A stretch of 64,000 nucleotides of DNA from Rhynchopus sp. YZ270_cl-10 (lineage: Eukaryota). Below are positions 1,450 through 31,597 of this stretch, in pieces. Each line of letters opens with the position of its first letter. Within the stretch, counting starts at the first letter, position 1. The notes beneath the pieces were generated by a model. It ran no database searches and was not told where the DNA came from. It saw only the letters and a list, made by a program, of their open reading frames with translations. The stretch covers positions 434,001-498,000 of the forward strand of contig OZ037834.1 in the NCBI GenBank assembly GCA_964035575.1. Direction: 5' to 3'. The position numbers and the translations under genes were made by a program.

Positions 1450-2677
1450 TGCCAAGAGAAAAAAAAAATTCTGTAGTACATAGGCTTCGGCCGACATTGA
1501 GTACAGATCGTTATACCAGTAGGTATAACGTGATTGTCGATGCAACAAAAATCCCCCCCTTCCCCAGATGAGGACGATGTCGATACCTTCTAAAAGGCTT
1601 TTGATATATGGTGTGAAAGTGATGGTCGGCAGAACAATGACAGTGAAGACTGTCTGAAATGCTTGGCTAAACCAAACAGATTATTTTTCAAAAAAAAAAA
1701 GAATAATGGTTTTGGTTCTTATACAAATGTTAATTACCTAAACGAAATAATCAAAAAAAAAAAAAAAAAAAAGAAATAAAAAGTGTCTGGATGACGTTAT
1801 CCGGGTCACACTGAAACAGATTTATCAAAAAAAAAGAGAAAAAAAAACGAAAAAATAGTACCAATACCTTGGCTATCTAACAAAAAATAATGTCAGATCC
1901 CTCATATTTTATTTTGGTGACTGAGGTTCAGTGAAGATTGTAGACTCATCACCCCAAACCACCCCCTTTTCCCTCTTTTTCTTTTTTCTCTCGCCCCTTA
2001 TCTGCTGGTTTCAATATGGACCCCGCGGCTCTCAAATAATTTTTTTTTTCTTTTGTTGTGTTTTTCTTTTTTTGTTTCTTTTTATTGAAGACAGGCTGTG
2101 GAAGCAATGCTTATACCACTGTTACCCTTTCTTCATGTAAGATATGTGTCCACGTCAAGTGTTGTACACTCATCTTTCAGTTTTTTTTTTCTCTCTTTTT
2201 CCCAAGCAACTCCATGCACCCCTCCCATCCCAAAAAAAAAACAAATCTTCATTTTTTTTCAACGAGTGCAAAAAAAAAAAAAAATTACAGTTGTTCCTAA
2301 ATTGCCTATTCTTTCATGGATTTTTCAAAAAAAAGTATGTGTCATGTAACCTGTTTATTTTGCATGCTTGAAAAATTCTCGAAAAAATTTCCAATATTTA
2401 GGAGTAAGCCTGACAGTGAAGACTGTCTATATGCTACACTAATCCAACGATCAAAAAAAAAAAAGGGGGAAAATCTTACAAACCACCTGATTTTGTCTGA
2501 AAATTTGATGGACTTTAGTGGTATTAAAAACCATTTTTAGCACCCACCAAAACTCCACCAAAATTTCAGGCAAAGTCAGGTGGGCAAAAACGTATCGATT
2601 TTTTCTATAATAAAACATCACTCTATCTCTCATTCCCTTTTCCCCACCCCCTTGAGACCGAAATAGAAAATACAAAG

Positions 2678-4819
2678 ATGTTCCAAAGAGACTGCGTGAA
2701 CCCTTATTGTGACCGGAGAAGATGCCGAGAAAAGGTCGTCACGCGGATCCCTCTCAATATCATTGTGGCCCTTAAAAAATACTCCTACACCCAAGATAAT
2801 AAGGCCATTAAGAAAACGCTTAAATGTCATATCCCTCGCAGCGTAATCTTAAACGGTCACACATATTTCCTCGAAACTGCGGGAATCCACCAAGGTCCGT
2901 CGGCAACAACTGGTCATTATAGGTGTATACGCTTCCGCGGTCCTACAGGATTCAACACGCTGTTGGATGACCAATACCAGTATGCAATCAATGAGCGTTG
3001 CACGACAGAGCTTCTACAAAAAGAAGGGTACTTACTGGTGTTTAGGAGAGAGAAACCCAAGATCAATGGAACGCACCCTCCGACGCCAAACAGTGTACCC
3101 AATACCCCATACGGTAGCGAAAAGGAACCACGAGGTCCAACAGACCCCATTCCAAGCGCACAAGAGACCAAAACGTTCATAGCGAAGCCACCATCCACAG
3201 TAACCCATAAACAACAGGCAGCACCTAAAGTGGTAACTTACTGTGCGTCTCCGGTCAAACAGGCACCTCCCCCTTCTGTTACACCGGTTGCGAAACAGAG
3301 GGGTGCCCCCCCGTCAGTTGCCTTTGGATGCGGACAACAAAACGCCACTCCTTCCACAAAAGGAAAAAGCATGGACTTGGATGAAAATGTGTGGACAAAA
3401 AGTACTCTCAGGGAGAAACAAACCCCTATGAGACAAACAAGACCACCCGCAACGCCAATGACCGAAAGACATGTTGCTACCCCGGATATCAACATGAACC
3501 TCTTTACGTCGCCATACAATGAACAGAGACCAGGGGCACCTACCCCAATGAGAACAGGGAACCCTGAACTGCCCCAATATGGCACATCAACGTCTTTCAC
3601 GCCTACAAAGCAACCGGTGCAACAGGAAGCATGGAGTACAACAGAGACAATGCCTCCACCACCCATGCCTCCCCCAACAAAGGCACAAACGCCCAGGGTG
3701 CAGCCAAACGGCACAATGGAAGACGAAGCCCCTCCAACAAAGGGTTATGCAACACGTCCTCCTCCGCCAACAACGGCACATACACCTAGGATGCAACAAA
3801 GCGGCACAATGGAAGACGAAGCACCTCCAACGAGGGTCTATGCACCGCGTCCTCCTCCACCACCGCCACCTCCAACGGTGCCTCCTGAGGAGAGACAAGC
3901 AAGGACCACCGACGTTTTTTTCACATGTAAAAATGAAACTATTAAGAAAAAAGCATATCGATGGGACGAAATAGCATCCCCCGAAGGTGGAAGAAAGCGC
4001 AAAACTAGAGAGAACAAATGGACGCATGTCCCACCGAAGGGCACAAAGGCAAAAACACCCCAGCGGAAACATACGGCTTTAGTCGAACAGAACCAAAAGG
4101 GTACTAACAAGGCAGACCAAAAAGGAACGAAAAGGAAAACCAGGGCAACGGAAACTCCGAGCAAAAGCTCTGACCTCTTCAAATCACGTAGAGTGGACGC
4201 TGAGAAGCCCTCTGACCTCTCTAAAAGCCCTCAAACGACACAGGAGTCTCCAACGAAGGGTACAGCCTTACAGGAACCCGAAGAAGCTTATGAGTCGCAG
4301 AATCCATACACAAAACTTGCACGCAAAAAAAATAAAAGGAAGGAACACGACTCCGTACGGGCTTCACCTGGACATCTCCTCAAAAAGGCTAAAAAACAAG
4401 AGGCCACTGAGGAGCAAAGGACCAAGCAAAAAATCCAGGCCGAAACAAGGCCTACACCAAACAAGATACCGGAGAAAACTGGTCCAATAATGTGTCAGGG
4501 ATGTGAAAGATACTCCACAATTGGGGATGACACAATATTCACGGAGGAACTCTTAAAGAAGCATCAACGACGGTGTAAGGGATGGCGGGAGATGATGAAG
4601 TCTCCTGAAGTTTCGGAAGCATCCGGAGACGAAGCCATTTTCGAGGACTCCGAATCACAATCTGATTCCGAGCCTTCACTGGACTCCTGTGAAACTGACT
4701 TGACACGATTAACGTGCTCACTCTGTGGCAAAGGAACAACTAAAAAAGGACAGGCCTTTACCCCTTCTTCCTTAAAAAACCACAAAAGGCACTGCAAACT
4801 TTGGTCTGATGCAATATAA
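2678..4819 (+). CDS. 5'-truncated ORF: C-terminal half of a USP (peptidase C19) deubiquitinase domain, Pro/Thr/Lys-rich linker, two C2HC zinc fingers
   Basis: USP motifs: P-x-x-IIVALKK, His box YFLETAGIHQGPSATTGHY, LLDD, GYLLVFRR. No Cys box. Zinc fingers CQGC...HQRRC and CSLC...HKRHC. Internal ~93-bp duplication (GTMEDEAPPT twice). Confidence 0.75.
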   Translation: MFQRDCVNPYCDRRRCREKVVTRIPLNIIVALKKYSYTQDNKAIKKTLKCHIPRSVILNGHTYFLETAGIHQGPSATTGHYRCIRFRGPTGFNTLLDDQYQYAINERCTTELLQKEGYLLVFRREKPKINGTHPPTPNSVPNTPYGSEKEPRGPTDPIPSAQETKTFIAKPPSTVTHKQQAAPKVVTYCASPVKQAPPPSVTPVAKQRGAPPSVAFGCGQQNATPSTKGKSMDLDENVWTKSTLREKQTPMRQTRPPATPMTERHVATPDINMNLFTSPYNEQRPGAPTPMRTGNPELPQYGTSTSFTPTKQPVQQEAWSTTETMPPPPMPPPTKAQTPRVQPNGTMEDEAPPTKGYATRPPPPTTAHTPRMQQSGTMEDEAPPTRVYAPRPPPPPPPPTVPPEERQARTTDVFFTCKNETIKKKAYRWDEIASPEGGRKRKTRENKWTHVPPKGTKAKTPQRKHTALVEQNQKGTNKADQKGTKRKTRATETPSKSSDLFKSRRVDAEKPSDLSKSPQTTQESPTKGTALQEPEEAYESQNPYTKLARKKNKRKEHDSVRASPGHLLKKAKKQEATEEQRTKQKIQAETRPTPNKIPEKTGPIMCQGCERYSTIGDDTIFTEELLKKHQRRCKGWREMMKSPEVSEASGDEAIFEDSESQSDSEPSLDSCETDLTRLTCSLCGKGTTKKGQAFTPSSLKNHKRHCKLWSDAI

Positions 4820-5030
4820 CCTTTCATTCGTCTCAACAGAGTACGAACAAAGGGCCCTAGGTGAGGCGGGCGACGATCACCTGACAATCAAATATCTCCT
4901 CTTCTCTTTTTCTTTTATTGTGTGTACCCTACAAAACTTTATGGATAATGGCTGTTGCTCCATTTTTCCTTTTTTCTTTTTTTCTCCTTTTTTTTTTTTG
5001 AAAGCATGAAAAGAACTAATATGAACCTCT

Positions 5031-5121
5031 TCCTCTCTGATGACTGAGGAGGGTCTTCGGACCCTGGCCGCGTGAGGTTCTTAGTTTTTCGCAGGTCAGA
5101 GGATTAGCGGCCGAAACCTGC
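5031..5121 (+). ncRNA. Hammerhead-ribozyme-like motif with permuted strand order
   Basis: CTGATGA 5037-5043, GAAA 5113-5116, GTC 5095-5097. Stem I TCCTCT(5031-36)/AGAGGA(5098-5103). Stem II GGCCGC(5066-71)/GCGGCC(5107-12). Stem III GCAGGT(5091-96)/ACCTGC(5116-21). A cUUCGg hairpin is inserted at 5050-5065. Confidence 0.6.
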
Positions 5122-7810
5122 AAAACACACAAACATTTACAGACAGCACAAGGCATGGATTAAATCGTCATCTCAAAAAGTAACGTACCTTGTCTTAACG
5201 ACCCTTGGTCATGCTGCAAAAGTAAACAAACAAATAAGCAAAAAAGTACAAAATAAAGTAGCAAAAGCAAAAACAAAACAAAACAAAACAAACTTTCAAA
5301 CCCCCTTGAGACACCCCAACTCTGGTTGTAGGTTTTTCAAAAAAAAAAATGCAATTTTTATTTTTAGATTTTGTGTGTTGATACAGCTGGACACACTGTT
5401 TATCTCGACACTTCCCCTCCGGCAAGGGCTTGATCTTTCCCAGCAAGCTAACCATCTGCCCGAGTTTTTTTCTTTTTTTTTTCTTTTATTTTTTTTGTAC
5501 CTACAAAAAAGCGTAGGCTTAAAAGGAGAAATAGGTCCTCAGATACGGTCGCCAAATCACCCCCCTCCAAGCAATCAGCGAAAAAAATCATTTCCCCCCC
5601 CCCCCCCCCTTTTTGCTTACCTATCAGAGTTACTATTTTTTTTTAAAGTAGTGAGAGGGCAAACCACACTTCGGTGGGTTGTTGCACTCAAGTATACGAA
5701 AAAACCACCCAAATGCCAATGTGTGTGCGCTGCTGGTACTGCACCAATGTTAGCGATGACTGCCCTAAACCAATCGGACCAGATCCCCTACCACCCGTGA
5801 CGAGAACCAACAGCTAATGCGCTCACAGGCATTTTTTTTTCTTCCTTTTCAACAGAAGATTAATTTTATACCACCCTGCGCGACTTTCTTTTATTTTGAA
5901 AAACACGAAAAAAGATTCCTGAAGACCAATTGGTCATGGATCCAAAACACAAAAGCAACAACAAAACAAAAAAGCAAATAGTACATTTTTAAAGACCACC
6001 AAAACAAAAAGAGCACAAAGCAAAAACAACAACTTTCTGACAAACACCCTGCGCGACTTCCCTCTTTTTTTTTTCTCTCTCTCCTTCGGTGACTAAGCAT
6101 GAGAAGCTTAGACATCATTTTCAACTTTTTTTTTTATTACTCCTCCCCTAGTCAACACCCTCGGGCGAGACGCATATTGTTGTACAGACGAAAGCCTTTC
6201 TCAGAGTGGGTGATTGTCTGTACACAATGACCGAATCAAGTTTTTTCCCAAAAAAAAAAAAAAAAAAAAAAAAAAAGTGGAGAAATGACACAGATGGTCG
6301 AAGCGAGGATTTATTGAAATACACAACTTTTTTTTGGAGAGATTTTTGCACAAAAACTGTGGCAACACAAAACCGAGGCAACTACGCTACTCCAATAATT
6401 TATCAAAAAAGGGGGGGGGGGGGGGGGGAAAGAACAAATCAAAATGCTTCGTCAAACGTTGAGTACAGCCCGAGATAGTCACTAAAGTGGATATTGTGGG
6501 CGATTGTCGATATAATAGCAAAAAAAAACAAACACATACACTGGGCTCTGAAACCAGATTGAGTACAGTGCATTAACCCACTTCCAAAAAAAAAAACAGG
6601 TTTCTTCTGGTGGACTGTGTCGATCCAAAGGAAAAAGAATGAGGAAAAGGGAAGCTGTCCCCCCTGCCCCGTCGCAGTGTGGAACCCCGCTAAGTAGCAC
6701 AACAACAAAACTAAGCAAGAGGCAGTACCAGTGGCGCGGCTACCAATAACTACCGCGTAGTCAGCGTCACGCCTACCATGGTAGGTTACAGTGAAAAAAA
6801 AAAAAAAAAAAAAAAAAAAGAATAGTGGAGTGCATCCTCGGGTGTTTATCTACTACAACCAAGTTTTCAAAAAAAAAAAAAAAAAAAGGGAACAAAAACA
6901 GAAACCTCAAATTACCAGATACCCCGTTCTTGGCGTGTCATCATTTATTTCAAGTTTTATCTTTTTCTTCGATTCTTTATTATTTTTATTTTTGTTGTGG
7001 GTTTTTTTTAAGTCTACTCCCTAAGTGCAAGAGACTTACTTAGGCCCATATTCCCAAACACTTCTCCTCCATCACCCCTTTTTGTCATTGTCATTTTTTT
7101 TTCTTTTCTTTTCAAGGTGCCCAAGCACACGAGAGGCTTAGGTTCATCTCATAAAATTTTCTTTACTTTTTAAAAGATGGTTTTTTTTTTTACTCTCCCC
7201 TTCCCTGCAAAAATAGCAACTCTCATTGAAAAACTGGTAACACTTTTGTTGTCTATACCATTAAAAAGTTTTAAAGATGGTAGGTTACAGTGGGGGGGGA
7301 CAAGATGTGTGTGCACACAGAGAGGCTCTTCCATCTTTCATAAGTTTTCATGTTTTTGATTTTTTTTTCTTATTTTTTTTTTTTGATTTTGTGCCTGCAT
7401 CCGCCGATGAACGGCGAGGTGTTTGCACTTTCAACACCCCCCCTTTTTTTCTTTGTTGCACTCCGGGGTTCGATAACCCGCGGAGTGTCAGTGCCTGCGT
7501 CCTAGAGGCGTTTTGCACTATCAACTTTCGCTTTTTTGTTGTACCGTCGTAATCTACGGAAGTTTCAACTTGTGCACGAAGCATTTTACTTTTCTTTTTT
7601 TTTACGTTTTGCAAAACATAAAAAAGAAAGTTGGGGAACATTTTTTATTGATCCCCTCCTCCTATGCTATCAATTTATTGATTTGCATATGATGAAAATA
7701 CTTGTTGTATCGTTCCTTTTTTTTTTCTGACTTCCGTACCTTCCCCAAATCTCCCTCTTTTCTCTCTCTCTCTCTCCCTCTTCTTTTTTCCTTTTTCCTT
7801 TTCGCGATAG

Positions 7811-7853
<43 letters not shown>

Positions 7854-8078
7854 AAAAACAAAACGAATTCAAGTGTCGGGGGAAGTACACTTACCTTATC
7901 AAGAAAGAGAGTCCACCCAGTCCGCTCTTCCCACAGCCGTCTCTTCTTCTCAATAGAAAGAAGGCCTGGGTTCATTCTTTTATGTGTCTGTTCTACTTCC
8001 CCCCCCACTTTGACATTTGTCAATAAAATAGTGGGAGCACATTCTTGGGTGTCAACACTAAACTGCAATATCCATAGA

Positions 8079-8543
8079 TATAGAATGCGCATCATGCGCA
8101 AATTGTGTAAAAAAACATGCGCGTATATTTTGTGTTTTTTTTGATGCGCATGATTTTTGTGTTTTTTTATTCATGCGCATACAAAAAAACAAAACAACAT
8201 GCGCATATTTTTTTGTGTTTTTCTTGATGCGCATGTTTTGTGTTTTTTTTATGTCATGCGCATACAAAAAAACAAAAGTGGATGCGCATATTTTTTTGTG
8301 TTTTTCTTCATGCGCATGTCTTTTTGTGTTTTTTTGTGTTTTTTTGGTATGCGCATCACACATATGTGTGATGCGCATACCAAAAAAACACAAAAAGACA
8401 TGCGCATGAAGAAAAACACAAAAAAATATGCGCATCCACTTTTGTTTTTTTGTATGCGCATGACATAAAAAAACACACAAAAAACATGCGCATAACACAA
8501 TTATGCGCATTACGCGCATCATGCGCATGATGCGCATTCTCTA
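8079..8543. mobile_element. Foldback/MITE built from ATGCGCAT palindromes
   Basis: Terminal inverted repeat (T)AGAATGCGCATCATGCGCA. Near-perfect ~230-bp internal palindrome centred at 8363/8364. No clear TSD. Confidence 0.7.
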
Positions 8544-8596
8544 GCTATGAATATCGAGATTTCATTTTTTTATTTTATTGTGATGAAAGATGACTA

Positions 8597-9132
8597 CTGG
8601 GGGGGGGGGCTAATAAAGTATACGGTGCTAATAAAGTATACGGGGGTAATAAAGTATACGGTGCGGAAACCCATTTTGAGCGTGTAAATCTGTGAAATAA
8701 AGTATACGGTTTTTGTGTACATTTTTCTTACTAAAAAAAATTTACAGCAATTTTTGCACAAAAAATCGGATTTTTTTTTTTTTGATTTCGGTGGTCCGGA
8801 TTCTGTGCGTGCTGTGATGGGGTCACTTTGAGCTGAGAAACGAGTATTTTTGACCTAAAACGCGTGTATCAGTTTTTACACGATTGGTGCTGATGGGGTT
8901 CAGATTTGTGAAAATTTAAGTCACCAAAAAATTGTTCATTTTTCCACATTGACCCCACCACTGGCTGGGATTGGCCCAAAAATGTCAATGGTGGTGTTTT
9001 CGCGAGGTTTCGGCCACTAGAAACCCCAAAATAACAGTGATTTTTTTTTTTTTTCCTTTTTCGTTTTTTGGCCATTTAAGCAGTAATTCCCGCCGAATAA
9101 AGTATACGTATACTTTAATAGCTCCCCCCCAG
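8597..9132. mobile_element. Tc1/mariner-type MITE with TA TSD
   Basis: TIR CTGGGGGGG..CTA.TAAAGTATACG at both ends, TA duplicated. It splits the micro-repeat GACTAAGCACAGAGAGGCTTAGGGTCATC, whose empty version is at ~14595. Confidence 0.75.
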
Positions 9133-12459: not shown

Positions 12460-13005
12460 GTACCGTGCGCCTGCGGCGCTGCCTGTTCCCTACCAGTTTC
12501 TACAGGCAAACACTTGCCCCCTTTACCTTACACTGACGGGGTTTGACCAAAACCAAGAACTTGTCCATTTCGGCAAATTGACCCCACCACAGAACGGACG
12601 GATTCCGAAAATGCAAATGCCGGTGTTTTCACGCATTTTCATGTTTCAAGACGTCAGGATCAGGGAGAGAAAATCTGGTTGTGGGATTTACCTTGGCCCT
12701 CTTTACCCTACATGGATTTTGACCAAAACCAAGAATTTGGCCATTTCGGCAAAGTGACCCCACCACAGTGCGGACGGATTCCGGAAATCCCAATCGCGGT
12801 ATGTTTTCGGGCTGAAAACCCACTGTTTTTTCAGGGGAAAAAATTGCTTCCAAATGTCGGAATTTTCCGAATTTTCCTGAAAATGACCCTTGTTTACGAG
12901 TATGGGTTCATATTTTGCGAAAATTTAAGTCACTAAAATTTTGTCCATTTTTCCGTATTCACCCCACCACAAGCCGGGATTGGCTCAGAACTGCAACAAA
13001 ACGCC
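12460..13005 (+). repeat. ~550-bp dispersed repeat, copy 1 (copy 2 at ~62637-63180)
   Basis: Highly similar sequence starting TACCGTGCGCCTGCGGCGC, with an internal duplicated TTGACCAAAACCAAGAA...CCCCACCACAG module. Confidence 0.85.
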
Positions 13006-19048: not shown

Positions 19049-19535
19049 TGGTGCTTCCCGGGGGGTATGCATTTCACAAATTTTCAATTCAATTCACAAC
19101 TTTTCACAACTATTCACAACTTTTCACTACCCTTTTTTCTCTCGTTGGTGAAGCTTTTAAACGCCGGCATTTGCATTTCCGGAATCCGTCCGGCCAGTGG
19201 TGGGGTCAATTTGCCGAAATGGACAAGTTCTCGTCATTTCCGCACATCACACAGTACACAGGTACACAGGTACACCACATCACGTTCTATCTTGTGAATC
19301 CCAGCGTGCCCCTCAATGGGTGGGTCACCACCCGCCCAAAAAAAAAGCACTCACAAAAAAAAAATCAATTCACAACTTTTCACAACTATTCACAACTTTT
19401 CACATTTTTTCACAACTTTTCACCACTTTTCGCCAGCCTTCACAATTTTGTAGCAGTTTTCGTGTGGTGAAAATTTGTGAAAACTTGTCACATTTTGTGA
19501 AAATTTGTGAAATGCACACCCCCCGGGAAGCACCA
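19049..19535 (+). mobile_element. ~490-bp TIR element (MITE), copy 1
   Basis: ~38-bp TIR TGGTGCTTCCCGGGGGGT(A/G)TGCATTTCACAAATTTTCA. Subterminal TTCACAA arrays. Confidence 0.9.
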
Positions 19536-19559
19536 GTATTGTTCAATATAACTCATATT

Positions 19560-20014
19560 TGGTGCTTCCCGGGGGGTATGCATTTCACAAATTTTCAATT
19601 CAATTCACAACTTTTCACAACTATTCACAACTTTTCACCACCCTTTTTTCCTTCGTTGGTGAAGCTTTTAAATGCCGGCATTTGCATTTCCGGAATCCGT
19701 CCGGCCAGTGGTGGGGTCAATTTGCCGAAATGGACAAGTTCTCGTCATTTCCGCACAGTGCACAGTACACAGGTACACAGGTACAACACACCACGTTCTA
19801 TCTTGTGAATCCCAGCATACCCCTCAATGGGTGGGTCACCACCCAACCCAAAAAAAACTCAAATCAATTCACAACTTTTCACAACTTTTCACAATTTTTC
19901 ACCATTTTTCACCAGCCTTCACAATTTTATAGCGGTTTTCGTGTTGTGAAAACTTGTGAAAACTTGTCACATTTTGTGAAAATTTGTGAAATGCATACCC
20001 CCCGGGAAGCACCA
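19560..20014 (+). mobile_element. ~455-bp TIR element (MITE), copy 2, tandem to copy 1
   Basis: Same TIRs and body as copy 1, separated from it by 24 bp. Confidence 0.9.
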
Positions 20015-20646
20015 GCTCATTTATTTCTTTTATTTATTTTTTCCATCTTCTGTTGTTGGCTGCAGGGTACTTGCGCTTTCATTCGGGGCTGATATCGTAC
20101 GTGGGTCAGTCGGAGGTGCCTGCATCAACAGCTTCAATTTGGGTTTTTTTTTCCTTCGTTTTTCGCAAATTTCCGTGATCGGTGGATTTCATTCTTTTTT
20201 CTTTTTTCTTCTTTTTTTTGTACAGGTGCCCTCCGTTCTTGCAGAAGACAATGAACACCTTTTGTTCCATCCTCCTTTCCACGGTGGCAAGCACAGTGAA
20301 GAGACGACCTCAAAAAAAAAAAAAAACGCCTCTTTTCTTTCATATCCCTCCCCTTTTGAGGGGGGGCATTCATCTTCGAAATGGTTTCTTCCCAATTTTA
20401 TTTTTAAAATCTCACGAAAAAGAGAATAAAAAAAAATCCCATATCCCTCTAGTTTTTTTTGTCTCCTCCCTCAACACTAAACACACCTCCCCTCCCACCT
20501 TCCGTCTACAAAACGATCAAGCAAAATTAGACAGAGCACAAAGCACTTTCAAAACATACAAAAAAAAAACATTTTCAAACTCCCCTCCCACCTTCAACCC
20601 TTTTTCAGACCACTCTCCTACTCCCCCACACATCTCCACTTCCCTA

Positions 20647-22194
20647 ATGGACCGTCCAGCCAAACGCCGTCGTGTTGACGAAGGTAGCATCCTCCTTGCG
20701 CAGATGCTGCAATGCTCTGCAGGAGATATGGCAGTGTGCACTCCAGTACACCGTGCACGGATCCTCAGTGAACAGCTCGGGTGTGACGTGCATCTTAAGC
20801 GTGAAGACACACAGATCGGCTTTTCACATCATATACGTACTGCTTATACGTTGGTCTCCGCTTTGTCGGATGATGCACTGCACGGAAGGATTGTAGTAAC
20901 TGGACATGGAAATTTTGCGCACGCTGTCGCTCTTGCGCTAGACAGAGTGGTTGGGGAAAGCACAGCGCACGCCACCTCTTTAACCCTCACTGCGGTGCTG
21001 CCGGAGACAACCCCGTCGTTGTTGTTGAGACAGCTCAGGTCGTTTGTGTTTCGGTGTAACGCGGTTTTAGAGGTGGTCCTTGAAGGAAACACACAAAGCG
21101 CGACCCGAAAGCATGCCGATATTTTAGTCAAACAACACAACGCAGTTCTTTTGCAAAACACCGAAGGGTCTGAGGCAGTGGCAGCTGCAGGGTCTCTCGC
21201 GGTGGAGCTTTTCGCGCAACTCCCTTCTGTCGCGGGTACTGTGTATATTGGTGTAACGTCAGGAGCACTGTTAGCAGCGATCTCAGAATATGCGGCACAA
21301 ATTCACCCAGAAACTACAGTGGTAGCCGTTGAAGCGGAAGGTGAACACTCCTTATCAAAGAGATTAGCAAACGAAGAGCGATCCAACCGGACCGTACCAA
21401 ATGAGTATGCCGTCACCATCATTGCGAAGCACCTCAAATCGGGTCGAGTCCGGTTTCTGAGTGCCTCCCATGATGAGCAGTGCGCCGCAATAAAATCAGT
21501 ATTCCTCGACACCCGATCCATTCTTGAACCTGCCGGCGCATTGTCCGTCGCTGGGTTGAAGAAGGACGGTGTAAAAGAAAATGCAGGGATTGCTGTTGCG
21601 GTGCTTGGATCTGCAAATCTCGAGTTTACTACTCTCAGAAGTATTGCAGAACGCAGTGAAGAAAATGAAGTATTGGTTACCGTGGAGCTTCCAGAAGAGA
21701 ACGGCGCATTTAAAAGGATGTACAGCCATATTTACCCCCAACCGGTGACGGAGTTCTCTTATAGGTATGGAGGCGGGAAGAAGGCGGATGTGTTCATGTC
21801 GTTTGCAGTGAAGAGTGCGCAGGAAGGTGCTGCTGTGGTGTCGGCGTTAAATGGGAATGGGTTTCCGTGTACGCCACTGAAGGAGAATGAGCTGGCGAAG
21901 GCGCACGCTAGGTATCTAGTAGGGGGGAGAGGCGGGCCGGCAGATGAAAGGCTGCTGAGGTTTCAGTTTCCAGAGAATGGTGATGCCCTGCAGCAGTTTC
22001 TCGGGGCGTTGCCGGCGTTTGCAGGGGTGAGTCTCTTCCATTACCGCAACCATGGGGCAGATTTTGGCAAAGTGCTGGTAGGCATGAACGTGCCTGCGGA
22101 GCATGAAATCCGCTTTCAAACCTTCCTCTCCACAGTGGAATATGAATACACAGATGAAACATCGAACCCGTTTTATCGAATGTTTTTGAGGTGA
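20647..22194 (+). CDS. ilvA: Threonine dehydratase/deaminase (IlvA)-like protein, 515 aa, probably catalytically inactive, with intact C-terminal regulatory ACT-like domains
   Basis: Motifs TPV...LSEQLG..VHLKREDTQ, DTRSILEPAGALSVAG, SANLEF, TEFSYRY, NELAKAHARYLVGGR, ERLLRFQFPE, SLFHYRNHGAD, DETSNPFY. PLP-lysine site reads FSHHIRTAY. Start inferred at ATG 20647 (MDRPAKRRRV). Confidence 0.9.
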   Translation: MDRPAKRRRVDEGSILLAQMLQCSAGDMAVCTPVHRARILSEQLGCDVHLKREDTQIGFSHHIRTAYTLVSALSDDALHGRIVVTGHGNFAHAVALALDRVVGESTAHATSLTLTAVLPETTPSLLLRQLRSFVFRCNAVLEVVLEGNTQSATRKHADILVKQHNAVLLQNTEGSEAVAAAGSLAVELFAQLPSVAGTVYIGVTSGALLAAISEYAAQIHPETTVVAVEAEGEHSLSKRLANEERSNRTVPNEYAVTIIAKHLKSGRVRFLSASHDEQCAAIKSVFLDTRSILEPAGALSVAGLKKDGVKENAGIAVAVLGSANLEFTTLRSIAERSEENEVLVTVELPEENGAFKRMYSHIYPQPVTEFSYRYGGGKKADVFMSFAVKSAQEGAAVVSALNGNGFPCTPLKENELAKAHARYLVGGRGGPADERLLRFQFPENGDALQQFLGALPAFAGVSLFHYRNHGADFGKVLVGMNVPAEHEIRFQTFLSTVEYEYTDETSNPFYRMFLR

Positions 22195-22830: not shown

Positions 22831-25800
22831 ACCCGCAAACCCGCAAACCCGCAAACCGCAAACCCGCAAACCCGCAAACCGCAACCCGCAAACCCGCAAA
22901 CCCGCAAACCCGCAAACCCGCAAACCCGCAAACCCGCAAACCCGCAAACCCGCAAACCCGCAAACCCGCAAACCCGCAAACCCGCAACCCGCAAACCCGC
23001 AAACCCGCAAACCCGCAAACCCGCAAACCCGCAAACCCGCAAACCCGCAAACCCGCAAACCCGCAAACCCGCAAACCGCAAACCCGCAAACCCGCAAACC
23101 CGCAAACCCGCAAACCCGCAAACCCGCAAACCCGCAAACCCGCAAACCCGCAAACCCGCAAACCCGCAAACCGCAAACCCGCAAACCCGCAAACCCGCAA
23201 ACCCGCAAACCCGCAAACCCGCAAACCCGCAAACCGCAAACCCGCAAACCCGCAAACCCGCAAACCCGCAAACCCGCAAACCCGCAAACCCGCAAACCCG
23301 CAAACCCGCAAACCCGCAAACCCGCAAACCCGCAAACCCGCAAACCCGCAAACCCGCAAACCGCAAACCCGCAAACCGCAAACCGCAAACCCGCAAACCC
23401 GCAAACCCGCAAACCCGCAAACCCGCAAACCCGCAAACCCGCAAACCCGCAAACCCGCAAACCCGCAAACCCGCAAACCCGCAAACCCGCAAACCCGCAA
23501 ACCCGCAAACCCGCAAACCCGCAAACCCGCAAACCCGCAAACCCGCAACCCGCAAACCGCAAACCCGCAAACCCGCAAACCCGCAAACCCGCAACCCGCA
23601 AACCCGCAAACCCGCAAACCCGCAAACCCGCAAACCCGCAAACCCGCAAACCGCAAACCCGCAAACCCGCAAACCCGCAAACCCGCAAACCGCAAACCCG
23701 CAAACCCGCAAACCGCAAACCCGCAAACCCGCAAACCCGCAAACCCGCAAACCCGCAAACCCGCAAACCCGCAAACCCGCAAACCGCAAACCCGCAAACC
23801 CGCAAACCCGCAAACCCGCAAACCCGCAAACCCGCAAACCCGCAAACCCGCAACCGCAAACCCGCAAACCGCAAACCCGCAAACCCGCAAACCCGCAAAC
23901 CCGCAAACCCGCAAACCCGCAAACCCGCAAACCCGCAAACCCGCAAACCCGCAAACCCGCAAACCCGCAAACCCGCAAACCCGCAAACCCGCAAACCCGC
24001 AAACCGCAAACCCGCAAACCCGCAACCGCAAACCCGCAAACCCGCAAACCCGCAAACCCCGCAAACCCGCAAACCCGCAAACCCGCAAACCGCAACCGCA
24101 ACCCGCAAACCCGCAAACCCGCAACCCGCAAACCCGCAAACCGCAAACCGCAAACCCGCAAACCCGCAAACCCGCAAACCCGCAAACCCGCAAACCCGCA
24201 AACCGCAAACCGCAAACCCGCAAACCCGCAAACCCGCAAACCCGCAAACCCGCAAACCCGCAAACCCGCAAACCCGCAAACCAACCGCAAACCCGCAAAC
24301 CCGCAAACCCGCAAACCCGCAAACCCGCAAACCGCAAACCCGCAAACCCGCAAACCCGCAAACCCGCAAACCCGCAAACCCGCAAACCCGCAAACCCGCA
24401 AACCCGCAAACCCGCAAACCCGCAAACCCGCAAACCCGCAAACCCGCAAACCCGCAAACCCGCAAACCCGCAAACCCGCAAACGCAACCGCAAACCCGCA
24501 AACCCGCAAACCCGCAAACCCGCAAACCCGCAAACCCGCAAACCCGCAAACCCGCAAACCCGCAAACCCGCAAACCCGCAAACCCGCAAACCCGCAAACC
24601 CGCAAACCCGCAAACCCGCAAACCCGCAAACCCGCAACCCGCAAACCCGCAAACCCGCAAACCGCAACCCGCAAACCCGCAAACCCGCAAACCCGCAAAC
24701 CCGCAAACCCGCAAACCCGCAAACCCGCAAACCCGCAAACCCGCAAACCCGCAAACCCGCAAACCCGCAAACCCGCAAACCCGCAAACCGCAACCGCAAA
24801 CCCGCAAACCCGCAAACCCGCAAACCCGCAAACCCGCAAACCCGCAAACCCGCAAACCCGCAAACCCGCAAACCCGCAAACCCGCAACCCGCAAACCCGC
24901 AAACCCGCAAACCCGCAAACCCGCAAACCCGCAAACCCGCAAACCCGCAAACCGCAAACCGCAAACCCGCAAACCCGCAAACCCGCAAACCCGCAAACCC
25001 GCAAACCCGCAAACCCGCAAACCCGCAAACCCGCAAACCCGCAAACCCGCAAACCCGCAAACCCGCAAACCCGCAAACCCGCAAACCCGCAAACCCGCAA
25101 ACCCGCAAACCCGCAAACCCGCAAACCCGCAAACCCGCAAACCCGCAAACCCGCAAACCGCAAACCCGCAAACCCGCAAACCCGCAAACCCGCAAACCCG
25201 CAAACCCGCAAACCGCAAACCCGCAAACCCGCAAACCCGCAAACCGCAAACCCGCAAACCCGCAAACCCGCAAACCCGCAAACCCGCAAACCCGCAAACC
25301 CGCAAACCCGCAAACCCGCAAACCCGCAAACCCGCAAACCCGCAAACCCGCAAACCCGCAAACCCGCAAACCCGCAAACCCGCAAACCCGCAAACCCGCA
25401 AACCCGCAAACCCGCAAACCCGCAAACCCCGCAAACCCGCAAACCCGCAAACCCGCAAACCCGCAAACCCGCAAACCCGCAAACCCGCAAACCCGCAAAC
25501 CCGCAAACCGCAAACCCGCAAACCCGCAAACCCGCAAACCCGCAAACCCGCAAACCCGCAAACCCGCAAACCCGCAAACCCGCAAACCCGCAAACCCGCA
25601 AACCCGCAAACCCGCAAACCCGCAAACCCGCAAACCCGCAAACCCGCAAACCCGCAAACCCGCAAACCCGCAAACCCGCAAACCCGCAAACCCGCAAACC
25701 GCAAACCCGCAAACCCGCAAACCCGCAAACCCGCAAACCCGCAAACCCGCAAACCCGCAAACCCGCAAACCCGCAAACCCGCAAACCCGCAAACCCGCAA

Positions 25801-28800
25801 ACCCGCAAACCCGCAAACCCGCAAACCCGCAAACCCGCAAACCCGCAAACCCGCAAACCCGCAAACCCGCAAACCCGCAAACCCGCAAACCCCGCAAACC
25901 CGCAAACCCGCAAACCCGCAAACCCGCAAACCCGCAAACCCGCAAACCCGCAAACCCGCAAACCCGCAAACCCGCAAACCGCAAACCCGCAAACCCGCAA
26001 ACCCGCAAACCCGCAAACCCGCAAACCCGCAAACCCGCAAACCCGCAAACCCGCAAACCCGCAAACCCGCAAACCCGCAAACCCGCAAACCCGCAAACCC
26101 GCAAACCCGCAAACCGCAAACCCGCAAACCCGCAAACCCGCAAACCCGCAAACCCGCAAACCCGCAAACCCGCAAACCCGCAAACCCGCAAACCCGCAAA
26201 CCCGCAAACCCGCAAACCCGCAAACCCGCAAACCCGCAAACCCGCAAACCCGCAAACCCGCAAACCCGCAAACCCGCAAACCCGCAAACCCGCAAACCCG
26301 CAAACCCGCAAACCCGCAAACCCGCAAACCCGCAAACCCGCAAACCCGCAAACCCGCAAACCCGCAAACCCGCAAACCCGCAAACCCGCAAACCCGCAAA
26401 CCCGCAAACCCGCAAACCCGCAAACCCGCAAACCCGCAAACCCGCAAACCCGCAAACCCGCAAACCCGCAAACCCGCAAACCCGCAAACCCGCAAACCCG
26501 CAAACCCGCAAACCCGCAAACCCGCAAACCCGCAAACCCGCAAACCCGCAAACCCGCAAACCCGCAAACCCGCAAACCCGCAAACCCGCAAACCCGCAAA
26601 CCCGCAAACCCGCAAACCCGCAAACCCGCAAACCCGCAAACCCGCAAACCCGCAAACCCGCAAACCCGCAAACCCGCAAACCCGCAAACCCGCAAACCCG
26701 CAAACCAAACCCCAAACCCGCAAACCCGTAAACGCAAACCCGAAACCGCAAACCCCGCAAACCCGCAAACCGCAAACCCGCAAACCCGCAAACCCGCAAA
26801 CCGCAAACCGCAAACCCGCAAACCCGCAAACCCGCAAACCCGCAAACCCGCAAACCCGCAAACCCGCAAACCCGCAAACCCGCAAACCGCAAACCCGCAA
26901 ACCCGCAAACCCGCAAACCCGCAAACCACCGCAAACCCGCAAACCCGCAAACCCGCAAACCCGCAAACCCGCAAACCCGCAAACCCGCAAACCCGCAAAC
27001 CCGCAACCCGCTAACCCGCAAACCCGCAAACCCGCAAACCCGCAAACCCGCAAACCCGCAAACCCGCAAACCCGCAAACCCGCAAACCCGCAAACCGCAA
27101 ACCCGCAAACCCGCAAACCCGCAAACCCGCAAACCCGCAAACCCGCAAACCCGCAAACCCGCAAACCCGCAAACCCGCAAACCGCAAACCCGCAAACCCG
27201 CAAACCCGCAAACCCGCAAACCCGCAAACCCGCAAACCCGCAAACCCGCAAACCCGCAAACCCGCAAACCCGCAAACCGCAAACCCGCAAACCCGCAAAC
27301 CCGCAAACCCGCAAACCCGCAAACCCGCAAACCCGCAAACCGCAAACCCGCAAACCCGCAAACCCGCAAACCCGCAAACCCGCAAACCCGCAAACCCGCA
27401 AACCCGCAAACCCGCAAACCCGCAAACCCGCAAACCCGCAAACCCGCAAACCGCAAACCCGCAAACCCGCAAACCCGCAAACCCGCAAACCCGCAAACCC
27501 GCAAACCCGCAAACCCGCAAACCCGCAAACCCGCAAACCCGCAAACCCGCAAACCCGCAAACCCGCAAACCCGCAAACCCGCAAACCCGCAAACCGCAAA
27601 CCCGCAAACCCGCAAACCCGCAAACCCGCAAACCCGCAAACCCGAAAACCCGCAAACCCGCAAACCCGCAAACCCGCAAACCCGCAAACCCGCAAACCCG
27701 CAAACCCGCAAACCCGCAAACCCGCAAACCCGCAAACCCGCAAACCCGCAAACCCGCAAACCCGCAAACCCGCAAACCCGCAAACCCGCAAACCCGCAAA
27801 CCCGCAAACCCGCAAACCCGCAAACCCGCAAACCCGCAAACCCGCAAACCCGCAAACCCGCAAACCCGCAAACCCGCAAACCCGCAAACCCGCAAACCCG
27901 CAAACCCGCAAACCCGCAAACCCGCAAACCCGCAAACCCGCAAACCCGCAAACCCGCAAACCCGCAAACCCGCAAACCCGCAAACCCGCAAACCCGCAAA
28001 CCCGCAAACCCGTAAACCCGCAAACCGTACCCGCAAACCCGCAAACCCGCAAACCCGCAAACCCGCAAACCCGCAAACCCGCAAACCCGCAACCCGCAAA
28101 CCCGCAAACCCGCAAACCCGCAACCCGCAACCCGCAAACCCGCAAACCCGCAAACCGCAAACCCGCAAACCCGCAAACCCGCAAACCCGCAAACCCGCAA
28201 ACCCGCAAACCCGCAAACCCGCAAACCCGCAAACCCGCAAACCCGCAAACCCGCAAACCGCAAACCCGCAAACCCGCAAACCCGCAAACCCGCAAACCCG
28301 CAAACCCGCAAACCCGCAAACCCGCAAACCCGCAAACCCGCAAACCCGCAAACCCGCAAACCCGCAAACCCGCAAACCCGCTAAACCCGCAAACCCGCAA
28401 ACCCGCAAACCCGCAAACCCGCAAACCCGCAAACCCGCAAAACCCGCAAACCCGCAAACCCGCAAACCCGCAAACCCGCAAACCCGCAAACCCGCAAACC
28501 CGCAAACCCGCAAACCGCAAACCCGCAAACCCGCAAACCCCAACCCGCAAACCCGCAAACCCAAACCCGCAAAACCCGCAAACCCGCAAACCCGCAAACC
28601 CGCAAAACCCGCAAACCGCAAACCCGCAACCCGCAAACCCGCAAACCCGCAAACCCGCAAACCCGTAAACCCGCAAACCCGCAAACCCGCAAACCCGCAA
28701 ACCGCAAACCCGCAAACCCGCAAACCCGCAAACCCGCAAACCCGCAAACCCGCAAACCCGCAAACCCGCAAACCCGCAAACCCGCAAACCCGCAAACCCG

Positions 28801-31397
28801 CAACCAACCCGCAAACCCGCAACCCGCAAACCCGCAAACCCGCAAACCCGCAAACCCGCAAACCCGCAAACCCGCAAACCCGCAAACCCGCAAACCCGCA
28901 AACCCGCAAACCCGCAAACCCGCAAACCCGCAAACCCGCAAACCCGCAAACCCGCAAACCCGCAAACCCGCAAACCCGCAAACCCGCAAACCCGCAAACC
29001 CGCAAACCCGCAAACCCGCAAACCCGAAACCCGCAAACCCGCAAACCCGCAACCGCAAACCCGCAAACCCGCAAACCCGCAAACCCGCAAACCCGCAAAC
29101 CCGCAAACCCGAAAACCCGCAAACCGCAAACCCGCAAACCCGCAAACCCGCAAACCCGCAAACCCGCAAACCCGCAAACCCGCCCCAAACCCGCAAACCC
29201 GCAAACCCGCAAACCCGCAAACCCGCAAACCCCGCAAACCCGCAAACCCGCAAACCCGCAAACCCGCAAACCCGCAAACCCGCAAACCCGCAAACCCGCA
29301 AACCCGCAAACCCGCAAACCCGCAAACCCGCAAACCCGCAAACCCGCAAACCCGCAAACCCGCAAACCCGCAAACCCGCAAACCCGCAAACCCGCAAACC
29401 CGCAAACCCGCAAACCCGCAAACCCGCAAACCCGCAAACCCGCAAACCCGCAAACCCGCAAACCCGCAAACCCGCAAACCCGCAAACCCGCAAACCCGCA
29501 AACCCGCAAACCCGCAAACCCGCAAACCCGCAAACCCGCAAACCCGCAAACCCGCAAACCCGCAAACCCGCAACCCGCAAACCCGCAAACCCGCAAACCC
29601 GCAAACCCGCAAACCCGCAAACCCGCAAACCCGCAAACCCGCAAACCCGCAAACCCGCAAACCCGCAAACCCGCAAACCCGCAAACCCGCAAACCCGCAA
29701 ACCCGCAAACCCGCAAACCCGCAAACCCGACCCCAAACCCGCAAACCCGCAAACCCGCAAACCCGCAAACCCGCAAACCCGCAAACCCGCAAACCCGCAA
29801 ACCCGCAAACCCGCAAACCCGCAAACCCGCAAACCCGCAAACCCGCAAACCCGCAAACCCGCAAACCCGCAAACCCGCAAACCCGCAAACCCGCAAACCC
29901 GCAAACCCGCAAACCCGCAAACCCGCAAACCCGCAAACCCGCAAACCCGCAAACCCGCAAACCCGCAAACCCGCAAACCCGCAAACCCGCAAACCCGCAA
30001 ACCCGCAAACCCGCAAACCCGCAAACCCGCAAACCCGCAAACCCGCAAACCCGCAAACCCGCAAACCCGCAAACCCGCAAACCCGCAAACCCGCAAACCC
30101 GCAAACCCGCAAACCCGCAAACCCGCAAACCCGCAAACCCGCAAACCCGCAAACCCGCAAACCCGCAAACCCGCAAACCCGCAAACCCGCAAACCCGCAA
30201 ACCCGCAAACCCGCAAACCCGCAAACCCGCAAACCCGCAAACCCGCAAACCCGCAAACCCGCAAACCCGCAAACCCGCAAACCCGCAAACCCGCAAACCC
30301 GCAAACCCGCAAACCCGCAAACCCGCAAACCCGCAAACCCGCAAACCCGCAAACCCGCAAACCCGCAAACCCGCAAACCCGCAAACCCGCAAACCCGCAA
30401 ACCCGCAAACCCGCAAACCCGCAAACCCGCAAACCCGCAAACCCGCAAACCCGCAAACCCGCAAACCCGCAAACCCGCAAACCCGCAAACCCGCAAACCC
30501 GCAAACCCGCAAACCCGCAAACCCGCAAACCCGCAAACCCGCAAACCCGCAAACCCGCAAACCCGCAAACCCGCAAACCCGCAAACCCGCAAACCCGCAA
30601 ACCCGCAAACCCGCAAACCCGCAAACCCGCAAACCCGCAAACCCGCAAACCCGCAAACCCGCAAACCCGCAAACCCGCAAACCCGCAAACCCGCAAACCC
30701 GCAAACCCGCAAACCCGCAAACCCGCAAACCCGCAAACCCGCAAACCCGCAAACCCGCAAACCCGCAAACCCGCAAACCCGCAAACCCGCAAACCCGCAA
30801 ACCCGCAAACCCGCAAACCCGCAAACCCGCAAACCCGCAAACCCGCAAACCCGCAAACCCGCAAACCCGCAAACCCGCAAACCCGCAAACCCGCAAACCC
30901 GCAAACCCGCAAACCCGCAAACCCGCAAACCCGCAAACCCGCAAACCCGCAAACCCGCAAACCCGCAAACCCGCAAACCCGCAAACCCGCAAACCCGCAA
31001 ACCCGCAAACCCGCAAACCCGCAAACCCGCAAACCCGCAAACCCGCAAACCCGCAAACCCGCAAACCCGCAAACCCGCAAACCCGCAAACCCGCAAACCC
31101 GCAAACCCGCAAACCCGCAAACCCGCAAACCCGCAAACCCGCAAACCCGCAAACCCGCAAACCCGCAAACCCGCAAACCCGCAAACCCGCAAACCCGCAA
31201 ACCCGCAAACCCGCAAACCCGCAAACCCGCAAACCCGCAAACCCGCAAACCCGCAAACCCGCAAACCCGCAAACCCGCAAACCCGCAAACCCGCAAACCC
31301 GCAAACCCGCAAACCCGCAAACCCGCAAACCCGCAAACCCGCAAACCCGCAAACCCGCAAACCCGCAAACCCGCAAACCCGCAAACCCGCAAACCCG
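22831..31397. repeat. (AAACCCGC)n tandem array, ~8.57 kb, ~1,070 units; telomere-like or satellite
   Basis: Direct reading. Frequent 1-nt indel variants on the left, essentially perfect from ~29740 to 31397. Bounded by gaps on both sides. Confidence 0.98.
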
Positions 31398-31597
31398 NNN
31401 NNNNNNNNNNNNNNNNNNNNNNNNNNNNNNNNNNNNNNNNNNNNNNNNNNNNNNNNNNNNNNNNNNNNNNNNNNNNNNNNNNNNNNNNNNNNNNNNNNNN
31501 NNNNNNNNNNNNNNNNNNNNNNNNNNNNNNNNNNNNNNNNNNNNNNNNNNNNNNNNNNNNNNNNNNNNNNNNNNNNNNNNNNNNNNNNNNNNNNNNN
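31398..31597. other. Assembly gap (200 N)
   Basis: Run of N. Confidence 1.

What the first reader, a model, noticed from the sequence alone, without database searches (positions are those of the whole stretch)
5011..5125. Hammerhead core assembled in a non-circularly permuted order
Seen: all core elements (CUGAUGA, GAAA, GUC) and three perfect 6-bp stems are present. The order is I(5')-CUGAUGA-insert-II(5')-linker-III(5')-UC-I(3')-UUA-II(3')-GAAA-III(3'), so a 3-nt linker joins the distal ends of stems I and II. A 22-nt insert (a second CUGAGGA plus a cUUCGg hairpin) sits between A9 and stem II. 5011-5029 can also pair with 5074-5089. Established: types I-III are circular permutations, stems I and II lie side by side, and rearranged or dimeric natural hammerheads exist. 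Inference: a pseudoknotted or dimer-acting ribozyme cleaving after C5097 that would process the element RNA. Standard hammerhead models would probably miss it.
Basis: partly seen in the sequence, partly recalled or inferred. Interest (0 to 1): 0.8.

Follow-up and report, generated by a model that had tools for sequence, protein, structure and literature searches.

The report
Knotted hammerhead ribozyme in protist retrotransposon
The tail of a jumping gene, in what is likely a single-celled flagellate, holds every part of a self-cutting hammerhead RNA in a rare knotted order with an extra hairpin inside its core; it likely cuts the element's own RNA, which would help explain why this group of jumping genes was reported to lack a standard hammerhead.

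Summary
Confirmed. All core nucleotides, three perfect 6-bp stems and a 7+9-bp stem I–II helix are present; 8 of 1839 shuffled windows gave any such locus, by a looser rule. The order is the published type CSG (Eckert 2023: two unique sequences, soil DNA, cleavage shown), plus a 22-nt insert between A9 and G10.1 that their block rule excludes. It lies in the 3' UTR of a 5'-truncated, TSD-flanked copy (2659–5299) of a Chlamys-type Penelope-like retroelement (GIY-YIG–CxC–DKA–RT–USP protease), probably in a diplonemid-like euglenozoan. That clade is described as lacking canonical hammerheads. Read by eye, 7 of 8 published nematode Naiad consensuses (eighth end not seen) carry plain CSG hammerheads, and two other Naiads carry the same hairpin module after A9 with the chain opened elsewhere; the window's RNA is a circular permutation of that form. 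Most likely a monomeric ribozyme cutting after C5097 (about 0.7); cleavage untested, no within-family covariation obtained. This scan noted rewired hammerheads before in animal Naiads and a moss element, not this DNA.

The parts
2659..5299 (+). 5'-truncated copy of a Chlamys-type (N-terminal endonuclease) Penelope-like retroelement
   Evidence: Frame identical to the last 719 residues of the 1900-aa RT-bearing protein P0123, starting at 2660; bounded by a 13-bp direct repeat
2646..2658 (+). Left copy of a 13-bp direct repeat, likely target-site duplication
   Evidence: Longest exact match between the 5' junction region (2601-2665) and 5121-9000; sits one base from where protein identity starts
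5300..5312 (+). Right copy of the 13-bp direct repeat
2660..4819 (+). Remnant of the element ORF: C-terminal half of a USP/UCH-type protease domain, low-complexity linker, two CxxC...HxxxC fingers, stop TAA
   Evidence: 713/713 identity to P0123 1188-1900; UCH PF00443 at P0123 1039-1309, E 1.6e-9
4820..5299 (+). 3' UTR of the element; the ribozyme starts about 190 nt after the stop and the predicted cut lies 202 nt before the element's end
5011..5029 (+). [quoted passage not shown]
   Evidence: pairs with 5074-5089; pair probabilities 0.5-1.0; same helix in CSG-1/2
5031..5036 (+). Stem I, 5' strand
   Evidence: 6 Watson-Crick pairs with 5098-5103
5037..5043 (+). Core C3-A9 (CUGAUGA)
5044..5049 (+). 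Insert, part 1: six bases at the place of 'helix X' of the opened-core Naiad form; can also pair with the stem I 5' strand as a decoy
   Evidence: decoy pairing worth -5.9 kcal/mol over the open scaffold; a lone C5044-G5049 pair is not favourable by nearest-neighbour rules; correspondence read by eye
5050..5065 (+). Insert, part 2: 6-bp hairpin with UUCG loop directly 5' of stem II (hairpin Y)
   Evidence: pair probabilities 0.6-1.0
5066..5071 (+). Stem II, 5' strand (G10.1 = 5066)
   Evidence: 6 Watson-Crick pairs with 5107-5112
5074..5089 (+). 3' strand of the I-II helix (P0)
   Evidence: distal part carries deletions in a variant subfamily
5091..5096 (+). Stem III, 5' strand, ending in U16.1
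   Evidence: pairs with 5116-5121
5097..5097 (+). C17; predicted cleavage 3' of this base (GUC triplet)
   Evidence: by analogy with CSG-1/2, which cut at the analogous site; not tested
5098..5103 (+). Stem I, 3' strand
5104..5106 (+). 3-nt linker (UUA) joining the distal ends of stems I and II
   Evidence: UUAA in CSG-1/2, UUA in Naiad_Plae
5107..5121 (+). Stem II 3' strand, G12-A15.1 (GAAA, 5113-5116) and stem III 3' strand

Best explanation
This stretch holds a complete hammerhead core in the knotted CSG order inside the 3' UTR of a Penelope-like retroelement, and it likely folds as a single molecule and cuts the element's RNA after C5097. Shown: the pairings, the order, the element and its boundaries. 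Inferred fold: two hairpin domains form first (the I-II helix closing the CUGAUGA side, stem III closing the cut-site side) and dock through stems I and II, with the 3-nt linker and the I-II helix holding those stems side by side; the 22-nt insert is looped out of the core at the A9/G10.1 step as an accessory hairpin. Inferred role, by analogy with hammerheads in the pseudo-LTRs of other Penelope-like elements: it cuts unit-length RNA out of tandem or read-through transcripts (diplonemid genes are co-transcribed in long clusters) for reverse transcription by the element's own enzyme. The cut does not mark the element's end, since this copy runs 202 nt past the site with the ribozyme intact, so the template was uncut, re-joined or tandem RNA; the decoy pairing of the insert with stem I could slow cutting during transcription.
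For: Anatomy and rarity. Same helix order, same I-II helix and a UUA(A) linker as CSG-1 and CSG-2, which cleave at the predicted site at 0.004 and 0.026 per min. Location 190 nt after the stop of an RT-encoding Penelope-like ORF, where canonical PLEs carry their hammerhead (Fig. 1 legend). Near-identical nested 5'-truncated ORF copies on six contigs, one possibly this copy, point to recent activity. Contigs from three runs cross the insert in both the main and a variant subfamily and no joint skips it (tables 5 and 8). By eye in the supplement of PMC8557442: 7 of the 8 listed nematode Naiads (Ppac, Parc, 1/2/3_Nbra, Hcon, Hpol; Asuum end not seen) have plain CSG hammerheads in their 3' regions with different sequences in every stem; Naiad_Plae and Naiad-4_Dst (named by file order) have the same helices plus a short helix and an 8-bp hairpin between A9 and stem II, so a hairpin at that step recurs in distant relatives. 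A further plain CSG (L154, 11-bp I-II helix) came out of a metagenome scan.
Against: No cleavage assay; no RNA data. No insert-bearing hammerhead has, to my reading, been shown to cut: Eckert et al. state that known alignments have at most 1-2 extra bases at this step, and a 2-nt core insertion elsewhere impaired a natural ribozyme. The nested minimum-energy fold uses the insert to sequester the stem I 5' strand; pseudoknot energies were not computed. No compensatory change within this family was seen: a variant at 12-25% of summed depth has G5094A in stem III with no partner change listed (it may lie too near contig ends to be listed). The helix X counterpart is at best one pair here and unfavourable by nearest-neighbour rules. 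The Naiad comparisons are by eye, without alignment statistics. The Chlamys-1_cBra 3' UTR, the closest in protein layout, showed no CUGAnGA by eye. An earlier scan note on a moss element reports hammerhead words with no sign of cutting (e1-7364151, unchecked).
Confidence: 0.7

Rival explanations
1. A folded but non-cutting (or nearly silent) descendant of a CSG hammerhead: the insert or the decoy pairing has disabled catalysis and the structure persists as a recognition signal for the element's RT/endonuclease, or simply because the family is young.
For: Decoy fold is the nested minimum; copies are near-identical so conservation says little; the copy extends past the cut site; uncompensated-looking G5094A variant.
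Against: All 13 core positions and a GUC site are intact; a hairpin at the same step is present in two distant Naiads with intact cores; the insert is present in both subfamilies seen.
Confidence: 0.16
2. It cuts only as a dimer or with help (two tandem copies swapping strands, or the element's protein as chaperone), as reported for short-stem-III Penelope hammerheads.
For: PLE hammerheads are described as cleaving as dimers with low rates; the six bases after A9 are imperfectly self-complementary; PLEs insert as partial tandems.
Against: Stem III here is 6 bp and not palindromic; self-pairing of the insert is only -3.4 kcal/mol; CSG-1/2 cut co-transcriptionally as single constructs; no second copy in the window.
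Confidence: 0.12
3. Chance assembly of short words in a low-complexity genome.
For: The descriptor does hit shuffled DNA now and then: 30 loci over six orders in 1839 windows.
Against: 18 Watson-Crick pairs plus a 16-pair I-II helix in the published arrangement, in the 3' UTR of a Penelope-like element whose relatives carry the same architecture.
Confidence: 0.02

Closest known systems
Type-CSG hammerhead ribozymes CSG-1 and CSG-2 (Eckert, Friedrich, Weinberg, Weinberg 2023, PMC10085705; read: main text parts 1-6 of 8, supplement passages and part 2)
   Same: Block order C-S-G; helix joining the strand before stem I with the strand after stem II; CUGAUGA, GUC, GAAA; short UUA(A) linker from stem I 3' to stem II 3'.
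   Different: 22-nt insert with a hairpin between A9 and G10.1, which their block rule and RNAMotif patterns (CUGAUGAG or CUGAUGAUG) exclude; 19-nt rather than about 9-nt spacer from stem II to stem III; found in a eukaryotic retroelement, whereas theirs came from soil metagenome DNA with no host or element assigned.
Chlamys (N-terminal GIY-YIG) Penelope-like elements, closest in layout Chlamys-1_cBra (Craig et al. 2021, PMC8557442 and preprint 10.1101/2021.04.23.441226; read: preprint parts 2-4 of 7, passages of the journal text, supplement parts 1, 14, 15, 45 and search passages)
   Same: N-terminal GIY-YIG without the CCHH cysteines, KR block, CxC, GxKY, DKA, RT, C-terminal cysteine protease plus C/H motif, frequent 5' truncation, no canonical hammerhead.
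   Different: Protease is USP/UCH type rather than Josephin-like; host likely a euglenozoan, whereas the paper lists green algae, spike mosses and slime molds; a clear 13-bp TSD; carries a rearranged hammerhead.
'HHR_core' / 'HHR_half_core' motifs of Naiad elements (same paper)
   Same: CUGAnGA and GAAA in the 3' UTR at non-canonical distances; by eye these resolve into plain CSG (nematodes) or an opened-core form with the same helices and a hairpin before stem II (Naiad_Plae, Naiad-4_Dst).
   Different: The paper gives no fold for them; here the chain is closed across the A9/G10.1 insert and opened after stem III, that is, a circular permutation of the opened-core form.
Canonical type I hammerheads of Penelope pseudo-LTRs and retrozymes (review PMC6765202, passages; bioRxiv 10.64898/2026.07.22.740005, part 1 and passages)
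   Same: Hammerhead near the 3' end of a Penelope-like element, proposed to process tandem transcripts.
   Different: Those are circular-permutation type I with a very short palindromic stem III and act as dimers; this one is doubly pseudoknotted with full stems.

Membership tests
Hammerhead ribozyme | Core C3-A9 CUGAnGA, G12-A15.1 GAAA, U16.1-H17 | tested here: met
   CUGAUGA 5037-5043, GAAA 5113-5116, GUC 5095-5097
Hammerhead ribozyme | Stems I, II, III around the core, with G10.1-C11.1 and A15.1-U16.1 | tested here: met
   Three 6-bp Watson-Crick stems
Hammerhead ribozyme | Site-specific self-cleavage 3' of H17 | not testable with these tools
   Needs in vitro transcription
Hammerhead types I-III (circular permutations) | Blocks in order CGS, GSC or SCG; match to Rfam models | tested here: not met
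   Order is CSG; no Rfam match
Type-CSG hammerhead (Eckert 2023) | Block order C, S, G | tested here: met
   against definitions
Type-CSG hammerhead (Eckert 2023) | [quoted passage not shown] | tested here: met
   5011-5029 / 5074-5089; Suppl. Fig. 10
Type-CSG hammerhead (Eckert 2023) | Block C uninterrupted: at most 1-2 bases between A9 and stem II | tested here: not met
   22-nt insert; rule. So filed as a variant that works like CSG, not a plain member
Type-CSG hammerhead (Eckert 2023) | Covariation in the stems among homologues | tested here: inconclusive
   Within the family no compensatory pair seen; across Naiads and L154 the stems differ in sequence and keep pairing, by eye only
Chlamys/Naiad Penelope-like elements | GIY-YIG endonuclease N-terminal to RT | tested here: met
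   P0124: GIY-YIG 387-474 (E 0.0015, below Pfam cut-off), RVT_1 1052-1119 (E 0.0011, below cut-off); motifs placed
Chlamys/Naiad Penelope-like elements | KR block, CxC, GxKF/Y and DKA motifs before RT | tested here: met
   positions 499, 697, 733, 809 of P0124; definitions
Chlamys (as against Naiad) | [quoted passage not shown] | tested here: met
   Cysteines in 371-480 only at 378 and 442; definition
Chlamys/Naiad Penelope-like elements | Placement in the clade by RT phylogeny; insertion-in-fingers domain; pseudo-LTR tandem structure | not tested
   No reference sequences as data and no genome; atlas neighbours of the RT part are unnamed streptophyte and rotifer clusters at 0.96-0.97, a lead only

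The most novel reading that the evidence does not exclude
Rearranged hammerheads are the shared, ancient ribozyme of the whole N-terminal-endonuclease Penelope clade (Naiad plus Chlamys), from euglenozoans to animals, and this RNA is the bridge between its two wirings: plain type CSG (nematode Naiads, and probably the orphan soil sequences CSG-1/2) gains a helix-plus-hairpin module between A9 and G10.1 (this element), and a circular permutation that opens that module gives the opened-core form of other Naiads. The A9/G10.1 step is then a fourth place where a working hammerhead can be extended or opened, beyond the published six-order scheme.
Probability: 0.45. Interest if true: 0.82.

Novelty: new variant of a known kind. 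Interest (0 to 1): 0.7.

Why it matters
Type CSG was known from two unique metagenomic sequences with no host or function. This gives it a genomic home and a likely job, and offers a direct answer to a stated puzzle: Naiad and Chlamys retroelements were reported to thrive without canonical hammerheads, with only unexplained core words in their tails. The insert breaks the assumption behind the published permutation scheme and search patterns, so a class of ribozymes is being missed in eukaryotic genomes. It is testable with one 120-nt transcript, and it marks a core position that may accept whole hairpins, of use for ribozyme switches. It also extends Chlamys-type elements, here with a USP protease fusion, to what is likely a diplonemid.

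Tried and rejected
No genome is held for the window, so copies could not be aligned. Rfam: 0 matches in the window at gathering scores, 0 at E up to 1 for 4800-5320 and for L154. P0001 alone: no Pfam family and no homologue of similar length among 7986 candidates; the hit came only with 'longer' and region 1-135 (1 of 16 candidates). Of all 421 loci, two passed the CSG descriptor: L154 (convincing, no insert) and L040 (long spacers, no I-II helix noticed; rejected); none resembled the window's family by blastn. These scans were cut off, so absence means little. The search for related loci with P0123 in viral contigs: 3 pattern hits, none confirmed. No RNA holder listed among sequencing runs. 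Contig depths and contig ends (one X3 piece starts at 5098, X1 and X2 pieces do not) were not used as evidence of cutting or copy number. The upstream part of the UTR has no read or contig data. The representative-protein search never ran. Considered and rejected: the second CUGAGGA as the working core with the UUCG hairpin as stem II (no GAAA after it, no stem I partner); a host-gene reading of ORF 2678-4819 (it is the tail of an RT polyprotein); a lone C5044-G5049 pair as a stable helix. Literature: searches for 'non-circular permutation'+hammerhead, 'type-CSG' (only Eckert 2023), 'A9 and G10.1' (none), Naiad+Chlamys+ribozyme from 2022 (two papers, neither describes rearranged hammerheads in the passages read), Penelope+hammerhead+permutation from 2023, diplonemid+retrotransposon+ribozyme and extra-helix terms found no report of this variant or of CSG in PLEs. 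Weinberg 2015, Lünse 2017 and Hammann 2012 were not held; a 2026 paper says variants with additional helices have been reported, so an insert at this step may be in papers I could not see. That a viroid hammerhead tolerates one extra base between A9 and G10.1 is recalled; only the title was seen. Passages of PMC2632901, PMC10162972, PMC13159263 added nothing.
Full report
Observation. In 5'-3' order: a strand 5011-5029, stem I 5' (5031-5036), CUGAUGA (5037-5043), a 22-nt insert (5044-5065), stem II 5' (5066-5071), the partner of the first strand (5074-5089), stem III 5' (5091-5096), C5097, stem I 3' (5098-5103), UUA, stem II 3' (5107-5112), GAAA, stem III 3' (5116-5121). Stems I-III are six Watson-Crick pairs each; the outer helix has 7 + 9 pairs. 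Stems I and II cross each other, stem III and the outer helix, so nested folding programs show only the outer helix, the UUCG hairpin and stem III. A descriptor covering all six block orders with up to 30-40 inserted bases finds this locus and no other in the window; shuffled windows gave 0 CSG loci in 100 and 8 in 1839, without asking for the outer helix. Rfam has no match.

What order it is. Eckert et al. 2023 (PMC10085705) divide the hammerhead into blocks C, S and G. This sequence is C-S-G. They found two unique type-CSG sequences, in soil metagenome DNA, both self-cleaving at the predicted site (0.004 and 0.026 per min), and no such RNA in the genome of a known organism except a doubtful GCS case. 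Their alignment shows the same helix from the strand before stem I to the strand after stem II, and a UUAA linker between the 3' strands of stems I and II. The difference is the insert: they assume block C cannot be interrupted by more than one or two bases, and their patterns demand CUGAUGAG or CUGAUGAUG, so this RNA could not have been found by them.

Where it sits. The ORF ending at 4819 has no Pfam match alone, but it is identical over 713 of 713 residues to the C-terminus of a 1900-aa protein, P0123, whose 90% cluster has six members on six contigs, of 74 to 2366 residues, all sharing the same C-terminus; the 707-aa member may be this copy. The longest, P0124, reads GIY-YIG (387-474), KR block, CxC, GxKY, DKA, RT motifs, a USP protease (Cys and His boxes) and two CxxC...HxxxC fingers. 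N-terminal GIY-YIG, CxC and DKA define the Naiad/Chlamys group of Penelope-like elements; lack of the CCHH cysteines points to Chlamys. The Pfam scores for RT and GIY-YIG are below the curated cut-offs and no tree was built. Chlamys-1_cBra likewise has a C-terminal cysteine protease and C/H motif. In the window, identity with P0123 starts at 2660, and a 13-bp direct repeat lies at 2646-2658 and 5300-5312: a 5'-truncated insertion, 2659-5299, with the ribozyme in its 480-nt 3' UTR and the predicted cut 202 nt from the end. A neighbouring threonine dehydratase has Diplonema papillatum as its best named hit (44%, seventh row, in a group of seven hits well above the rest), so the host is likely a diplonemid or close euglenozoan. 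The D. papillatum genome paper does not mention Penelope elements and describes long co-transcribed gene clusters.

Copies. In three runs 30, 47 and 58 contigs lie on 5005-5215, with differing flanks, as expected of a repeat. Listed differences within the ribozyme are G5072A (unpaired), deletions at 5081 and 5084 (distal part of the outer helix) and G5094A (stem III). No partner change is listed for G5094A; one at 5118 might be too near the contig ends to be listed, so this is unresolved. Pieces of both the main and the variant type cross the insert and no joint skips it. There is therefore no covariation evidence from within the family.

Relatives. Craig et al. (PMC8557442) say Naiad and Chlamys lack canonical hammerheads but note unexplained 'HHR_core' and 'HHR_half_core' words. 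I read parts of their consensus file by eye. Seven of the eight listed nematode Naiads (Ppac, Parc, 1/2/3_Nbra, Hcon, Hpol; the Asuum end was not seen; Ppac named by file order) have in their 3' regions a plain CSG hammerhead: outer helix of about 8-16 pairs, stems I-III fully paired with different sequences, CUGAnGA directly on stem II, a 2-5-nt linker. The records before Naiad_Dcar and Naiad_Ppla (Naiad_Plae and Naiad-4_Dst by file order) have another wiring: short G-rich strand, 8-bp hairpin, stem II 5', outer-helix strand, stem III 5', cut site, stem I 3', 3-nt linker, stem II 3', GAAA, stem III 3', outer-helix strand, stem I 5', CUGAUGA, short C-rich strand that pairs back to the first. 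There, too, a short helix and a hairpin lie between A9 and G10.1. The window's RNA has the same cyclic order of strands, opened after stem III instead of in the short helix, which here has shrunk to six bases. It can thus be read both as CSG plus an insert and as a circular permutation of the opened-core form. The Chlamys-1_cBra 3' UTR showed no core by eye, and I viewed only some of the 54 Naiad and few of the Chlamys records. One more plain CSG, L154, came from a metagenome scan cut at 120 rows; its AT-rich contig looks eukaryotic, unverified.

Mechanism. Shown: sequence, pairings, element, boundaries. Inferred: the outer helix and stem III form two hairpin domains whose loops dock through stems I and II (duplex energies -7.2 and -11.7 kcal/mol), displacing a decoy in which the insert pairs with the stem I 5' strand (-5.9 kcal/mol) and a weak pairing in the other loop (together 9.6 kcal/mol); loop penalties of the knot were not computed. 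The insert loops out at A9/G10.1. The decoy can form before the 3' half is made, which would delay cutting. By analogy with pseudo-LTR hammerheads, the cut would release unit RNA from tandem or read-through transcripts for reverse transcription. That this copy extends beyond the cut site means its template was uncut, re-joined or tandem. I put monomeric cutting at 0.70, a silent relic at 0.16, dimer or helper dependence at 0.12, chance at 0.02.

Novelty. The order is published; the insert, the retroelement context and the likely euglenozoan host are not in the papers my ten searches reached, but three relevant papers were not held and variants with additional helices are said to exist. Earlier notes of this scan report rewired hammerheads in animal Naiads, HERO elements and a moss Chlamys-like element; they gave me the lead to the Craig supplement and the opened-core idea, are not independent support, and none matches this DNA or protein. 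Verdict: real; new variant of a known, very rare kind; interest 0.7.

Noticed in passing
L154:382-490 (minus strand; contig JAAUYL010063164.1): A further plain type-CSG hammerhead: 11-bp I-II helix, CUGACGA on stem II, GUC site, UUA-starting linker; no Rfam match; AT-rich, eukaryote-looking contig with a short RG-rich ORF upstream.
   Followed up: partly
Supplement of PMC8557442, File S5: Published nematode Naiad consensuses carry unrecognised type-CSG hammerheads; Naiad_Plae and Naiad-4_Dst carry an opened-core form. Read by eye only.
   Followed up: partly
window 2660-4819; P0123, P0124: Penelope-like polyprotein (up to 2366 aa) fused to a USP/UCH-type protease with Cys and His boxes and two zinc fingers; a protease family not listed for Chlamys in the text read.
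   Followed up: partly
window 5157-5215: A segment of the element's 3' UTR is shared by more, and more varied, contigs with different upstream flanks than the ribozyme; it may be a 3' signal common to several families or short non-autonomous elements. No strong fold.
   Followed up: no
window 22831-31397: About 1080 copies of an 8-mer (ACCCGCAA), 8.6 kb, bounded on both sides by runs of N: a satellite or an assembly-joined piece.
   Followed up: no
window 20182-22194 (+): Intronless threonine dehydratase (PALP + two regulatory domains), best named hit Diplonema papillatum 44%; remaining hits mostly bacterial.
   Followed up: partly
window 45064-50811 and 51356-52651 (+): A 1915-aa ORF with bacterial Ig/cadherin-like repeats and a 431-aa ORF with one such domain and a likely membrane segment.
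   Followed up: no
window 19049-20014 and 43125-43628; 12531-12841 and 62708-63017: Dispersed 300-500-bp repeats, 94-96% alike, with 10-bp internal arrays and short terminal inverted arms: MITE-like elements.
   Followed up: no
window 8109-8540: Palindromic array built on ATGCGCAT units, including 93-bp perfect inverted arms 44 bp apart.
   Followed up: no
window 35594-35687 and 40086-40208: Two arrays of a 21-bp GC-rich near-palindromic unit in inverted orientation 4.5 kb apart, possibly ends of a DNA transposon; an ORF at 31400-33648 has a weak DUF659 match.
   Followed up: no
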